A program made the translations under genes and the position numbers. A stretch of DNA of 41,873 nucleotides, from positions 1-41,873 of IMG/VR virus record IMGVR_UViG_3300046836_000283. One strand, written 5' to 3'. The notes beneath the pieces are model-generated. The model was not told the DNA's origin and did not search any database. It was given only the letters and a program-made list of their open reading frames with translations. Origin of the DNA: a virus. Below, piece by piece: positions 4,401-6,418 of the stretch. Position 1 is the first letter of the stretch. The number at the start of each line of letters is the position of its first letter.

Positions 4401-4753
4401 GGGGAAGGCATCTGTTTGTTGGGATCCAAAACGCCCCTGGCCCTCCCCGCTTGCCTGTCCGATGATCCTGGCACGCGAGCTCTGGTATTCACGACATGAT
4501 CGGCCAGGATCAGTCCGCCAGCGGACAGAGGGGGCATTTGGTCCACGGGGGGCAAACCATCTTCGGCCCCCTCCACCCACACGGATAGCCAGGGCATGCA
4601 CATCTCGGTGCCCAGCATGAACGTGGCCCCAGCCATCTCGTCAGCAAGCAGAGGGGGCAAACAAATCGTGGGATGCACATTTACGCTGGCCCCCTCCACC
4701 CGCCGACATCGGGGCATCGGCTCTGCGGTCATCAAGCAGTTGACGGCCCCGAT
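4401..4753. repeat. Tandem array of six 42-nt hairpin elements (G-run-CA, N28, GG-C-run)
   Basis: CA positions 4409, 4472, 4535, 4595, 4658 and 4715, spaced 63, 63, 60, 63 and 57 nt. The loop invariants YGG (10-12) and CA (17-18) are present in all six. The arms are complementary and covary. Confidence 0.8.
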
Positions 4754-4755
4754 AT

Positions 4756-5787
4756 TCATGCAGCCGCTGCCAGATCAGCAGCCTTCGCAGCCTCATGCCA
4801 CCAGCGCCACAGATCCTCCACCAGCGCCTTAAGCATGATCCGGCGCGCGTCAGCATCGCTGTGCGCTGGCGTCCAATCGGGGTGCGTCAGCGCCGTCTGC
4901 TCGCGCCGCCTGGCATACACAGCGCCATAGACGTTCTTGCCCTTGGCGAAGAACAGCGGCGCCCCGACATCGCCCGCCATCCTACCGCGTCGCGTGGGGT
5001 TATAACCAAGCTCGGACCACTCAGCCTTGGTCAGCTCATTGGTCTTGAACCGCGACATTGCCTTGCCGCGGAACGGTGCCAGGCCGAGGCGTTTCCACAG
5101 ATGGTAATAATGCGGATACGTGGTCAGATCGTTGCCGGCCTCCGCGATGATGCAGGCGAGACCAAGGTCACCAAAGCCGGCCACCGCCGTACAGCGTTCA
5201 TAGATCGGAAATGAGCGAGCGATCTCCCGCATACGTCGCTCGGCATCCACGCGCATTGCATCCCACCCGGCGCGTGACTGGATCGTATTGACGATGATGG
5301 GCAAGCAGGCGTCGGGGGCAGTTGATAAGTGGGTTTCACGAGCATTCCGGCCCCCGCCGTCCGCCGCATCCGGGGCAGCCATTGGTTGGGGTTCAGACCA
5401 ATCGTGGCCCCGAGACTTCGCAACGTCGGTCCGCATCTTCGCGGCCCGCTTCATCAGCGCCAGCCGCTCGGCCTCCGGCAGGCCAGCGTGATACCCGATG
5501 TAGCGCGACACATACGCATCGCATGATCGATCACACTGCGACTGCGAGCGGATGGCATGCACCCGGCGTCGCTGCCATTCGATAAGCTCCGCGATCAGAG
5601 GAGGAGGTGGAGGGGGCACCGTGCGCCTGGAGACCATTTGACCTTCGGCCCCCTCCTCCCCACTCGAAAGCGGCACTTTGCCCTTGGCTACCGCGTGTTG
5701 TCCGGCCGCCTCCGTATTGCCGGCATTGACCGTATGGGCTCCAACGCCTGGCTGGCCGGCAATCTCTGTCTTGCGTTTCCTAGCCAT
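4756..5787 (-). CDS. IS110-family transposase C-terminal (HhH/Transposase_20)-like protein lacking the N-terminal DEDD/RuvC domain
   Basis: VAGFGDLGLACIIAEAGNDLTTYPHYYHLWKRLGLAPFRGKAMSRF...GYNPTRRGRMAGDVG resembles IPGIGxxTAxxLxAEIGDxxRFxxxxxLxxYxGLxPxxxxSG. The N-terminal ~190 aa is low-complexity. GGAGGA lies 5 nt upstream of the ATG at 5787. Confidence 0.5.
   Translation of the reverse strand: MARKRKTEIAGQPGVGAHTVNAGNTEAAGQHAVAKGKVPLSSGEEGAEGQMVSRRTVPPPPPPLIAELIEWQRRRVHAIRSQSQCDRSCDAYVSRYIGYHAGLPEAERLALMKRAAKMRTDVAKSRGHDWSEPQPMAAPDAADGGGRNARETHLSTAPDACLPIIVNTIQSRAGWDAMRVDAERRMREIARSFPIYERCTAVAGFGDLGLACIIAEAGNDLTTYPHYYHLWKRLGLAPFRGKAMSRFKTNELTKAEWSELGYNPTRRGRMAGDVGAPLFFAKGKNVYGAVYARRREQTALTHPDWTPAHSDADARRIMLKALVEDLWRWWHEAAKAADLAAAA
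5313..5412. repeat. Pair of 42-nt hairpin elements inside the IS110-like gene
   Basis: CA at 5319 and 5376, 57 nt apart. Stems are CGGGGGC/GCCCCCG and CGGGGC/GCCCCG, with the same loop invariants. Confidence 0.8.
5609..5709. repeat. Pair of 42-nt hairpin elements (second copy degenerate) inside the IS110-like gene
   Basis: CA at 5617 (stem GGAGGGGGC/GCCCCCTCC) and 5674 (stem GCGGC/GCCGC, loop 17-18 is CG), 57 nt apart. Confidence 0.7.
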
Positions 5788-6418
5788 CGGCGTCCTCCAC
5801 CGAGCGCGCCCACAGGTCGTCCGCATCCTCCGCGCTGATCCACCGCCGGATCGGATCGGCAGCGGGGACGTTCGAGGTCAGCATCGTGACCCAGCGCACA
5901 TGGCGTCCCTCACGCCGTGCCCACGCCCGCGCCACACCAGCCTGCACGTCCCCGATCGGCATCCCGTCGATCCTAAATGTGTCGAGCATTGTCAGCCGCA
6001 GCACCGTCCCGACGCTGTCCTGCGCAGCGCGGCGGTTAGGAGGGGTAGCGACGGGGGCATTCAGTGACCGGTCGTCAAAAAGAGAACGGCCCCCGTCGGG
6101 GCGCTCGTTGGGGGCATGCCCGAGGTGGTCGTCAGTTGCGCGCCGGCCCCCGCTACGCGCCCTTTCCTGCCGAGCAAACTCGTCCCGGCGCATATCGCTT
6201 TCGACGCCGCCCAGCAGCCGGCGCAAAGCGAGCTCCCGATACGGCTCGAACAATCCATCCAGCAGATCAGCGTCGTGCCGTACACGGGCATAGAGCGCGT
6301 TGGCAGCGGCCACGCGGCTGGTGCCGTGCGCCGCGAGCACCTCGATGGCAATCGAGCGCAGTTGCTCCTCAACCGTCACCACGCCAGCCGCACGCAATGC
6401 CTGCGCTAATTGCACCAT
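5780..6418 (-). CDS. Hypothetical protein (~212 aa)
   Basis: Its start region (GTG 6421 / ATG 6418) overlaps the upstream stop. The central disordered segment contains two hairpin elements. Confidence 0.6.
   Translation of the reverse strand: MVQLAQALRAAGVVTVEEQLRSIAIEVLAAHGTSRVAAANALYARVRHDADLLDGLFEPYRELALRRLLGGVESDMRRDEFARQERARSGGRRATDDHLGHAPNERPDGGRSLFDDRSLNAPVATPPNRRAAQDSVGTVLRLTMLDTFRIDGMPIGDVQAGVARAWARREGRHVRWVTMLTSNVPAADPIRRWISAEDADDLWARSVEDADG
6049..6151. repeat. Pair of 42-nt hairpin elements inside gene 5780-6418
   Basis: CA at 6058 (stem CGACGGGGGC/GCCCCCGTCG) and 6115, 57 nt apart. The two loops share GGTCGTCA at positions 11-18. Confidence 0.8.

What the first reader, a model, noticed from the sequence alone, without database searches (positions are those of the whole stretch)
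4401..6151. About 12 co-oriented 42-nt hairpin elements (G-run-CA, N9, YGG, N4, CA, N10, GG-C-run) with fixed geometry and covarying stems
On the plus strand I find one architecture repeated 12 times in the same orientation. It is a G-rich arm ending in C-A, then exactly 28 nt, then G-G followed by a C-rich arm complementary to the first.

The CA falls at 4409, 4472, 4535, 4595, 4658 and 4715 (a tandem array), and at 5319+5376, 5617+5674 and 6058+6115 (three pairs).

Inside the 28 nt, only pyrimidine-G-G at positions 10-12 and C-A at 17-18 are invariant. The copy at 5674 has CG instead of CA. The rest of the loop varies.

The arms differ in sequence but stay complementary:
- GAGGGGGC/GCCCCCTC (4528, 4651)
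- GGAGGGGGC/GCCCCCTCC (5609)
- CGACGGGGGC/GCCCCCGTCG (6049)
- ATCGGGGC/GCCCCGAT (4708)
- CCTGGC/GCCAGG (4467)
- GGGGAAGGC/GCCCTCCCC (4401)
- GCGGC/GCCGC (5670)
So base pairing, not sequence, is what is retained.

Copies inside confident minus-strand genes occupy two different codon phases. The 5609 copy reads EGA-x9-VPP. The copies at 5313, 5371, 6049 and 6110 read GGR-x9-AP or RGH-x9-AP. Conservation is therefore at nucleotide level, not peptide level.

Every neighbour spacing is a multiple of 3 (63, 63, 60, 63, 57, 57, 57, 57), and the core is 42 nt, or 14 codons.

By eye I found no G5CA...GGC5 pair elsewhere in the 41.8 kb. All copies lie in the promoter-proximal part of the leftward early operon, within and just downstream of the gene for an HhH/IS110-Tnp-like protein and upstream of a NusG paralog. 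There is no U-tract, so these are not intrinsic terminators, and there is no constant direct repeat, so this is not CRISPR.

Possible roles:
- RNA or ssDNA hairpins bound by the HhH protein
- Recruitment or pause signals for the NusG paralog
- Palindromic selfish elements tolerated in frame, as with Rickettsia RPEs
Basis: seen in the sequence. Interest (0 to 1): 0.9.

Follow-up and report, generated by a model that had tools for sequence, protein, structure and literature searches.

The report
Phage guide-RNA array (TIGR-TasA)
The 42-nt hairpins are the guide-RNA units of a stem-loop TIGR array with its nuclease-free TasA protein, an RNA-guided DNA-binding system first described in 2025, and one of the 13 guides matches a conserved site in the serine-recombinase gene of rival phages and plasmids.

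Summary
Shuffled sequence gives none, and a covariance model finds none elsewhere in the window.

Read on the gene-sense (-) strand, each unit is stem-GG|CCR|N9|UG|N4|CCR|N9|UG|CC-stem. That is two 9-nt spacers, each between a box C (CCA) and a box D (UG), joined by a 9-nt loop, with a 36-nt core closed by a covarying stem. This is the published stem-loop TIGR (tandem interspaced guide RNA) unit.

The "HhH/IS110-like" protein (4756-5787) is a TasA. Its profile matches TasR (PDB 9MTY). Its model matches TasH/TasR first, then IS110 recombinases, then Nop5. It has no nuclease domain. In-frame units inside tas, lying in disordered segments, are also already published.

Spacers are 32-46% identical between phages whose flanks are 79-87% identical.

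So this is a new member of a known kind. It is not a NusG signal, a selfish palindrome or a terminator.

One new lead: the 18-bp target predicted for unit 4593 matches exactly a conserved site in a serine-recombinase gene. It was found in 36 alphaproteobacterial genome loci and 70 viral contigs, some from related phages. The other five intergenic guides gave 1-2 chance hits each. This is suggestive, not proven.

The parts
4397..4452 (-). tigRNA unit (core 4407-4442); spacers GGGGCGTTT / ACAAACAGA; intergenic sub-array
   Evidence: 39.6 bits; 13-bp basal stem, z -3.35
4460..4515 (-). tigRNA unit (core 4470-4505); spacers ATCATGTCG / GAGCTCGCG
   Evidence: (10-bp stem)
4523..4578 (-). tigRNA unit (core 4533-4568); spacers AAGATGGTT / TGGACCAAA
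4583..4638 (-). tigRNA unit (core 4593-4628); spacers CGTTCATGC / AGATGTGCA. This is the unit whose predicted 18-bp target matches the serine-recombinase site.
4646..4701 (-). tigRNA unit (core 4656-4691); spacers GCGTAAATG / CGATTTGTT
4703..4758 (-). tigRNA unit (core 4713-4748); spacers TCAACTGCT / CAGAGCCGA; abuts the tasA stop codon. The same spacer pair sits in a different stem in L001.
4756..5787 (-). tasA gene (343 aa). Disordered N-terminal tail (aa 1-60), coiled coil (63-124, 152-190), C-terminal Nop-like RNA-binding domain (196-342), no nuclease domain.
   Evidence: 9MTY, E 4.4e-7; pLDDT 79.8; Foldseek: TasH/TasR, then IS110, then Nop5
5307..5362 (-). tigRNA unit inside tasA (core 5317-5352; aa 146-157, coiled-coil tip)
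   Evidence: (45.3 bits)
5364..5419 (-). tigRNA unit inside tasA (core 5374-5409; aa 127-138, coiled-coil tip)
5605..5660 (-). tigRNA unit inside tasA (core 5615-5650; aa 46-58, disordered N-terminal tail)
5662..5717 (-). tigRNA unit inside tasA (core 5672-5707; aa 27-39). Its first box D is CG instead of UG, and it is the weakest model score.
   Evidence: (19.5 bits)
5712..5767 (-). tigRNA unit inside tasA (core 5722-5757; aa 11-22).
   Evidence: 9-bp stem; 38.7 bits
5780..6421 (-). Conserved upstream gene (213 aa, function unknown). It overlaps the tasA start by 8 nt and carries two units in its disordered linker.
6046..6101 (-). tigRNA unit inside the upstream gene (core 6056-6091; aa 111-122)
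   Evidence: z -5.7
6103..6158 (-). tigRNA unit inside the upstream gene (core 6113-6148; aa 92-103)

Best explanation
The region is a stem-loop TIGR-Tas locus of a P22-like temperate phage.

**Expression (inferred).** The leftward early operon (Cro, a VRR-NUC-like gene, the 213-aa gene, tasA, then the array) is transcribed. The transcript contains 13 stem-loop units.

**Unit anatomy (shown).** Each unit has a covarying basal stem ending in GG/CC. The stem encloses box C (CCR), a 9-nt spacer A, box D (UG), a 4-nt linker, box C' (CCR), a 9-nt spacer B and box D' (UG).

**Mechanism (shown for other TasA and TasR proteins in the cited papers, not for this one).**
- A TasA dimer binds the two box C/D pairs of one unit. 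The coiled coil makes the dimer and the Nop-like C-terminal domain reads the boxes.
- The units are cut out of the transcript.
- The two spacers pair with opposite strands of an 18-bp DNA site laid out as 5'-[spacer A][reverse complement of spacer B]-3'.
- TasA has no nuclease domain, so the complex binds and bends the DNA and blocks transcription rather than cutting.

**Units inside genes (shown).** Seven units lie in frame inside tasA and inside the upstream gene. They fall in segments predicted to be disordered, so they encode variable linker peptides without breaking the folds.

**Spacer turnover (shown).** Spacers are replaced as whole cassettes much faster than the surrounding genes diverge.

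**Biological role (inferred).** The most likely role is silencing of rival mobile elements. One guide (unit 4593) fits a conserved site in their serine-recombinase gene.
For: **Anatomy.**
- 13 units, none in shuffles.
- On the sense strand each reads CCR-N9-YG twice, with a 9-nt UG-N4-CCR loop and a 36-nt core.
- This is identical to the published tigRNA boxes: CCA = box C, UG = box D, and the loop repeat starts with UG and ends with CCA (PMC12045711).
- It also fits the published stem-loop arrays: two 8-12-nt spacers, variable palindromic stems in place of edge repeats, and 13 stem-loops in three sub-arrays next to a TasA.

**Stem.** Covariation as. All 13 units fold with the basal stem.

**Protein.**
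- Profile hit to TaTasR 9MTY, E 4.4e-7.
- Foldseek ranks TasH and TasR first, then ISCro4/IS621, then Nop5/Prp31.
- No Pfam nuclease domain.
- The family signature GFGD..WKRLGLAP is present in the alignment in the supplement of PMC12045711.

**Intragenic units.** They map to pLDDT<50 segments. Xu et al. 2026 report the same for stem-loop arrays.

**Association and orientation.** 23 of 30 multi-unit loci have a Tas ORF against 3 of 99 others. The units are on the tas strand in 23 of 23 loci.

**Spacer turnover.** Spacers are 32-46% identical against 79-87% for flanks. The same cassette occurs in different stems.

**Function of TasA as an RNA-guided repressor.** Shown for other TasA proteins.
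Against: - There is no expression, processing or binding data for this locus.
- The CUU motif reported at the stem base of stem-loop tigRNAs is not enriched here.
- Counts of G.U against A.C mismatches favour the sense strand only weakly (74 against 45).
- No target was found for 12 of the 13 guides, either in the phage's own genome or in the sequences held.
- Unit 5672 has CG instead of UG and scores low. It may be decaying.
Confidence: 0.9

Rival explanations
1. Selfish in-frame palindromic repeats (Rickettsia RPE, REP or MITE-like) that spread by insertion and are merely tolerated.
For: - Copy number differs between related phages by whole units.
- Units sit in frame in disordered linkers.
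- Spacing is often a multiple of 3.
Against: - Copies share no sequence beyond 13 fixed nucleotides. Pairwise loop distances are those of random sequence.
- They occur only at the tas locus, in one orientation, in 23 of 23 loci.
- The fixed nucleotides are exactly the tigRNA box C and box D.
Confidence: 0.03
2. Recruitment, pause or antitermination signals for the NusG paralog (1664-2293) or another transcription factor, in the manner of nut, put or ops sites.
For: A NusG-domain gene lies downstream in the same operon (L001).
Against: - The units co-occur with tas, not with NusG. L003-L005 have 7-8 units and no NusG family called in the DNA held.
- Signals of this kind would not need 13 copies with hypervariable loops.
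- No Rfam family matches.
Confidence: 0.02
3. Single-stranded DNA hairpins or cruciforms acting as an origin, iterons or recombination sites for the HhH protein, as with lambda ori inside gene O or integron attC sites.
For: - The position is among replication genes: a replisome-organizer-like gene at 2457-3479 and an AAA_25 helicase in L003.
- Stems covary, as in attC sites.
Against: - The conserved loop nucleotides form a direct, not inverted, twofold repeat (CCR-N9-UG twice). This matches an RNA motif whose structure in complex with Tas proteins is solved.
- The closest structural relatives of the protein are RNA-guided Tas proteins.
Confidence: 0.03
4. An IS110-type bridge-RNA recombination system in which each hairpin is a target- or donor-binding loop.
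For: - Distant homologues are annotated as IS116/IS110/IS902 transposase, and one carries PF02371.
- IS621 and ISCro4 are structural neighbours.
- Spacer cassettes move between stems.
Against: - There is no RuvC/DEDD domain. The N-terminus is a disordered tail followed by a coiled coil.
- The serine position is not conserved in the family.
- The locus has 13 single-loop units rather than one two-loop RNA.
Confidence: 0.02

Closest known systems
Stem-loop TIGR arrays with TasA (Peromyscus leucopus gut contig PlTasA, Faure et al. Science 2025, PMC12045711; BlTasA and MbTasA, Xu et al. bioRxiv 10.64898/2026.09.09.750476; PlTasA structures, Guan et al. bioRxiv 10.64898/2026.08.11.744272)
   Same: - Nuclease-free Nop-domain protein with a coiled coil.
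- Tandem stem-loops with variable covarying stems.
- Two short spacers, each between box C and box D.
- Sub-arrays upstream of, inside and downstream of tas.
- In-frame intragenic units in disordered regions.
- Phage origin.
   Different: - Boxes and geometry here are those of the dual-repeat type: CCA/UG, a 9-nt loop and an exact 36-nt core.
- They are not the CUU/UG boxes described for PateTasR, and the CUU stem-base motif is not enriched.
- Two units lie inside a neighbouring non-tas gene.
- Expression has not been tested.
Dual-repeat TIGR-TasR and TasH (TaTasR 9MTY, SpTasH 9W04)
   Same: - A 36-nt unit with CCA-9 nt-UG twice and a UG-N4-CCA loop.
- Homologous C-terminal domain.
- The 18-bp dual-strand target rule.
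   Different: - No conserved edge repeat; a variable stem takes its place.
- No RuvC or HNH nuclease, so binding is expected rather than cleavage.
IS110 / IS621 bridge RNA recombinases
   Same: Homologous RNA-binding domain, and guide segments displayed in loops closed by stems.
   Different: No DEDD/RuvC catalytic domain, many single-loop units instead of one two-loop RNA, and no transposon ends.
Box C/D snoRNPs (Nop5 / Nop56/58)
   Same: A coiled-coil Nop-domain dimer reading a C/D and a C'/D' pair, with two guides per RNA.
   Different: No k-turn/L7Ae partner, no fibrillarin, and a DNA rather than an RNA target.
CRISPR arrays
   Same: A tandem array of variable guides with fast spacer turnover between related genomes.
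   Different: No constant direct repeat, split 9+9-nt guides, no cas genes, and units that can lie inside coding sequence.

Membership tests
TIGR-Tas (stem-loop array, TasA type) | Adjacent protein with a Nop-like fold (coiled coil plus C-terminal RNA-binding domain) homologous to Tas and to the IS110 RNA-binding domain | tested here: met
   - Profile against PDB: 9MTY TasR, E 4.4e-7.
- Foldseek top 11 hits are TasH/TasR, followed by IS110 recombinases and Nop5/Prp31.
- Model pLDDT 79.8.
TIGR-Tas (stem-loop array, TasA type) | TasA subtype: no RuvC or HNH nuclease domain | tested here: met
   No Pfam domain. Residues 1-60 are disordered and the rest is coiled coil plus C-terminal domain.
TIGR-Tas (stem-loop array, TasA type) | Each unit has two 8-12-nt spacers, each preceded by box C (CCA) and followed by box D (UG) | tested here: met
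   - All 13 window units read CCR-N9-YG twice on the sense strand.
- Over 150 copies, CCA is 77% and CCG 23% at the second box; UG is 95% at the first box D.
TIGR-Tas (stem-loop array, TasA type) | Inter-spacer loop of about 9 nt that starts with UG and ends with CCA | tested here: met
   UG-N4-CCR is 9 nt in every unit.
TIGR-Tas (stem-loop array, TasA type) | Variable but consistently palindromic flanks forming a stem, in place of edge repeats | tested here: met
   Covariation count; folds.
TIGR-Tas (stem-loop array, TasA type) | Units clustered around or inside tas and co-oriented with it | tested here: met
   Units are on the tas strand in 23 of 23 loci. 23 of 30 multi-unit loci have a Tas ORF, against 3 of 99 others.
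TIGR-Tas (stem-loop array, TasA type) | Spacers vary between related loci while boxes and stems are kept | tested here: met
   Spacers are 32-46% identical, against 76-88% for stems and 79-87% for flanks.
TIGR-Tas (stem-loop array, TasA type) | Conserved CUU trinucleotide at the stem base, reported as the processing mark of stem-loop tigRNAs | tested here: not met
   - CTT is at background frequency around the stem base in 149 units.
- In PateTasR, CUU is box C itself; here that position is CCR.
- This is a clade difference, not a defining feature of TIGR as a whole.
TIGR-Tas (stem-loop array, TasA type) | Array is transcribed, processed into single units and bound by the Tas protein, and the RNP binds an 18-bp target | not testable with these tools
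   Needs small-RNA sequencing of a pull-down and EMSA.
IS110 bridge-RNA recombinase | N-terminal DEDD/RuvC catalytic domain and a two-loop bridge RNA | tested here: not met
   No PF01548 or RuvC fold. The units have a single loop.
CRISPR-Cas | Constant direct repeats separating spacers; cas genes | tested here: not met
   Stems differ between units. No cas genes were seen among the proteins scanned.
REP / RPE-type selfish palindromes | Sequence-related copies dispersed through the genome | tested here: not met
   Loop distances are those of random sequence. There is no unit outside 4397-6158.
Any Rfam family | Match at the gathering score | tested here: not met
   None at gathering score. Only chance-level miRNA hits appear at E up to 5.

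The most novel reading that the evidence does not exclude
Guide unit 4593 has a real natural target: a conserved 18-bp site (codons P-F-M-L-H-I) in the serine-recombinase (resolvase-type) gene of rival temperate phages, plasmids and genomic islands of Alphaproteobacteria. On this reading the phage's TIGR-TasA system is a weapon between mobile elements that silences a competitor's recombinase.

This would be one of the first natural TIGR targets assigned. It would also confirm the A.rc(B) target geometry in nature.

**For.**
- The exact 18-mer with no gap occurs in 36 genome loci and in 70 of 70 viral hits, always in that gene.
- The five other intergenic guides gave 1-2 scattered viral hits each.
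- Some target-bearing contigs are related phages from the same metagenomes.
- The variant spacer in L001 corresponds to a synonymous TTT codon.

**Against.**
- 4^18 is smaller than the databases searched.
- Hits within one gene family are not independent.
- No second guide hits these elements.
Probability: 0.4. Interest if true: 0.7.

Novelty: new member of a known kind. Interest (0 to 1): 0.42.

Why it matters
The hairpins themselves are explained by TIGR-Tas, which was published in 2025-2026. That literature already covers stem-loop units embedded in frame in tas.

The value of this locus lies elsewhere. It sits in a complete 41.9-kb temperate phage genome that has several close relatives. 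This gives a natural series for studying two questions the field states are open: how TIGR spacers turn over, and what they target.

- **Turnover.** Here spacers are replaced as whole A-loop-B cassettes, and the same cassette can sit in different stems.
- **Targets.** One guide points to a conserved recombinase site in competing mobile elements. That can be tested directly with a purified RNP.

Tried and rejected
- **Inner pairing between the two variable segments.** None in four registers.
- **Rfam.** Nothing. No tRNA genes.
- **Similar DNA in GenBank phages.** None.
- **Close relatives of the protein in GTDB genomes** by single-sequence patterns. None.
- **Self-targets in the whole phage genome.** None with up to 2 mismatches in the published geometry. 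One 2-mismatch hit in the other geometry, at 39279.
- **Targets of 147 units in 1.19 Mb of held phage loci.** No excess over re-paired spacers.
- **Targets of 145 other units** in the recombinase loci, two Roseomonas plasmids and 70 recombinase-bearing viral loci. No excess.
- **18-mer targets of units 4407, 4470, 4533, 4656 and 4713 in IMG/VR.** 1-2 hits each, in unrelated contexts.
- **Unit 4656 in the metagenome collection.** 23 scattered hits. My idea that its target is a stop/start gene junction was not borne out.
- **CUU motif at the stem base.** Not enriched.
- **Structure of the upstream 213-aa protein.** The model was too poor to search with (pLDDT 60.5).
I had noted that the upstream unit pair is intergenic in L003. 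This was wrong: the 213-aa gene is there in full and was mis-called.
- **Catalogue check.** I could not establish whether this exact contig is already in the authors' catalogue. The supplement held is cut, and TIGRSafari is not available.
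Full report
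**1. The observation.** All are on the + strand between 4407 and 6148. None occurred in 100 dinucleotide-preserving shuffles. The flanking arms pair over 3-10 bp without mismatch. All 13 fold with that basal stem as RNA, with z-scores from -5.7 to 0. No Rfam family matches.

**2. Context.**
- The window is a complete P22-like phage genome of 63.7% G+C. It has a P22 portal, a terminase, a capsid protein, RecT, a cI-like and a Cro-like gene, and a NusG-domain gene at 1664-2293.
- The units lie in the leftward operon that starts at the Cro-like gene.
- Two units are inside a 213-aa gene (5780-6421). Five are inside a 343-aa gene (4756-5787). Six form a tandem array between that gene and the next.
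- The 343-aa protein has no Pfam domain. It does hit a PHROG annotated as transposase.
- It has 107 homologues, the most distant of which are annotated as IS116/IS110/IS902 transposase.

**3. The units travel with the protein.**
- Contigs encoding close homologues carry 6-12 copies of the motif at equivalent places.
- A scan of IMG/VR for the motif found many single, presumably chance, hits. It also found a set of multi-copy loci.
- Of 30 loci with at least two co-oriented units, 23 encode a protein matching the family profile. Only 3 of 99 other loci do.
- In 23 of 23 loci the units have the same orientation relative to the gene. This holds down to about 25% protein identity.

**4. Anatomy.**
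- Over 150 distinct copies, the stem covaries to about 9 bp.
- Position 32 is a pyrimidine in 94% of copies. The loop is therefore a direct twofold repeat, CA-N9-YGG, joined by four variable bases.
- The two 9-nt variable segments are not complementary to each other in any register.
- On 122 units aligned without gaps, the stem is 90.5% paired, against 69% in shuffles and 40-54% with slid partners. Six pairs change on both sides.
- A covariance model built from them finds the 13 window units on the - strand at 19.5-45 bits and nothing convincing elsewhere.

**5. The loops are hypervariable cassettes.**
- I aligned the window with three relatives. Flanking DNA is 79-87% identical and stems 76-88%. 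The 18 spacer positions of orthologous units are only 32-46% identical.
- Units are either kept nearly unchanged or replaced outright.
- The same spacer pair can sit in different stems. Window unit 4713 equals L001 unit 6544. L002 unit 5706 equals L002 6075 and L001 6243 with a one-base register shift.
- Pairwise distances between unrelated loops are those of random sequence.

**6. Identification.**
- A profile of the protein family matches PDB 9MTY, E 4.4e-7. That entry is TIGR-TasR in complex with tigRNA and target DNA.
- The AlphaFold model has pLDDT 79.8. It shows a disordered tail, a long coiled coil and a helical C-terminal domain.
- Foldseek ranks TasH and TasR structures first, then the IS110-family recombinases ISCro4 and IS621, then Nop5, Nop56/58 and Prp31.
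- Faure et al. (PMC12045711) define tigRNAs as 36-nt units. In them, box C (CCA) precedes and box D (UG) follows each of two 9-nt spacers. The loop repeat starts with UG and ends with CCA.
- The same paper describes stem-loop TIGR arrays. In these, variable palindromes replace the edge repeats next to a nuclease-free TasA. The example given has 13 stem-loops in three sub-arrays.
- Read on the gene-sense strand, every unit here is stem-GG|CCR|N9|YG|N4|CCR|N9|UG|CC-stem, with a 36-nt core and a 9-nt loop.
- Xu et al. (bioRxiv 10.64898/2026.09.09.750476) report 2,559 stem-loop arrays. They state that such units can lie inside the tas coding sequence without breaking the frame, in disordered regions.
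- Here the intragenic units map to aa 11-22, 27-39 and 46-58 (the tail) and to aa 127-138 and 146-157 (the coiled-coil tip). These are the low-confidence parts of the model.
- The two units in the upstream gene map to its disordered linker.
- Sequences with this family's signature appear in the structural alignment supplied with Faure et al..
- I therefore file the finding as a stem-loop TIGR-TasA locus.

**7. How it most likely works.**
- Shown here: the anatomy, the homology, the association and orientation, and the spacer turnover.
- Taken from experiments on other TasA and TasR proteins:
  - the array is transcribed and cut into single units;
  - a Tas dimer reads the two box C/D pairs;
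  - spacer A pairs with one DNA strand and spacer B with the other across an 18-bp site;
  - nuclease-free TasA binds and represses transcription.
- Inferred for this phage: co-transcription with the early operon, and a role against other mobile elements.
- One published feature is not met. The CUU motif at the stem base is at background frequency. In this clade that position is the CCR box, so the units combine a stem-loop outside with dual-repeat-type boxes inside.

**8. Search for natural targets.**
- The published 8-nt 3' overhang fixes the geometry as 5'-[spacer A][rc spacer B]-3'.
- No guide has a site with up to 2 mismatches in the phage's own genome in that geometry. So perfect self-regulation is unlikely.
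- Nor is there an excess of sites in 1.19 Mb of related loci.
- I then scanned public collections with single targets. Units 4656, 4713, 4407, 4470 and 4533 gave 1, 2, 2, 2 and 2 viral hits, in unrelated contexts. Unit 4656 gave 23 scattered hits in the metagenome collection.
- Unit 4593 behaved differently.
  - In GTDB genomes, 60 hits had no gap, against 15 and 8 with gaps of 1 and 2.
  - Of the 60, 36 lie at the same codons (P-F-M-L-H-I) of one gene. The genomes are Acetobacteraceae, Bradyrhizobium, Methylobacterium, Microvirga, Reyranella and others.
  - In IMG/VR it gave 70 hits, all 70 in that same motif, in contigs of 55-70% G+C.
- The gene is a serine recombinase with a Resolvase domain and a recombinase HTH. 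It was found in three settings:
  - next to McrBC and a PIN toxin;
  - in a Prim-Pol element;
  - in the RepA-ParA backbone of Roseomonas plasmids, there with one mismatch.
- Twelve of the viral loci encode a terminase 37-68% identical to the window's. One (L304) shares terminase and tail genes and comes from the same metagenome as the TIGR phages L003 and L070.
- None of the 70 loci has a TasA. The window has no such recombinase.
- The relative L001 carries the same unit with one change, which matches the synonymous TTT codon variant of the site.

**9. Caveats on that lead.**
- The databases are larger than 4^18, so every 18-mer occurs by chance.
- Members of one gene family are not independent observations.
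- The 18-mer is made of preferred codons.
- No second guide hits these elements.
- My rough estimate is that a match to a site conserved across several bacterial orders has a chance probability of the order of 1 in 100 to 1 in 1000 per guide tested. I tested six guides. I rate the lead at about 0.4.

**10. Verdict.**
It missed the guide-RNA nature of the loops.
- The system is a new member of a known kind.
- The locus remains useful as a natural series for studying spacer turnover, and it offers one concrete, testable candidate for a natural TIGR target.

Noticed in passing
window 4252-4366 (+ strand): A promoter-like site (4252-4279) is followed by a strong terminator-like hairpin with a T-run (4334-4366, 13 pairs). 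Both are antisense to the early operon, between the array and the next gene. This could be a short antisense RNA in the manner of lambda oop.
   Followed up: no
window 5780-6421 (-); L001, L002, L003, L052, L126, L123, L053: The 213-aa gene upstream of tasA overlaps its start by 8 nt. It is conserved with tasA down to about 30% identity and has only 22 homologues in the large protein collection, none with a Pfam domain. It may be a dedicated partner, but it is not recognisably ParB-like. The model was too poor to search with (pLDDT 60.5).
   Followed up: partly
window 4357-4365 versus unit 4407: Spacer A of the first unit (GGGGCGTTT) is identical to the 3' arm and tail of the terminator-like hairpin only about 40 nt away. 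The second half matches 5 of 9.
   Followed up: no
window 39279-39297: An imperfect inverted repeat, GACCAATCG-C-ACGATTGGC, matches unit 5374 at 16 of 18 positions with a 1-bp gap. The match is in the geometry opposite to the published one. The two spacers of unit 5374 are themselves partly complementary.
   Followed up: no
window 3434-4759 (-): The 441-aa ORF that runs across the intergenic array is probably an artefact of the open frame. Only its C-terminal part (from about 4210 down) has homologues (phrog_21138), and relatives call the downstream gene well after the array.
   Followed up: partly
L001 2489-3562: The closest full-length relative (41,890-bp contig) carries an IS605 OrfB/TnpB-type gene (Cas12f1-like TNB domain) in its early region. 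This gene is absent from the window.
   Followed up: no
window, whole: No integrase was seen among the proteins I scanned, although cI-like and Cro-like genes are present. The scan was not exhaustive. The genome looks circularly permuted, with the NusG-like gene at the left end and the terminase at the right end of one operon.
   Followed up: no
window 38015-39208 (-); L002 2069-3157: A 397-aa protein has a weak ADP-ribosyltransferase (ART-PolyVal) match next to the portal gene, as in the relative L002.
   Followed up: no
L304 12664-14200: The serine-recombinase gene of this related phage is followed by two extra partial copies of its C-terminal half.
   Followed up: no
L311 541-558, L312 1147-1164: The predicted target of unit 4407 occurs exactly, with no gap, in two related viral contigs, directly after a hairpin (a terminator-like context). 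Two hits is the chance level, so this is unresolved.
   Followed up: partly
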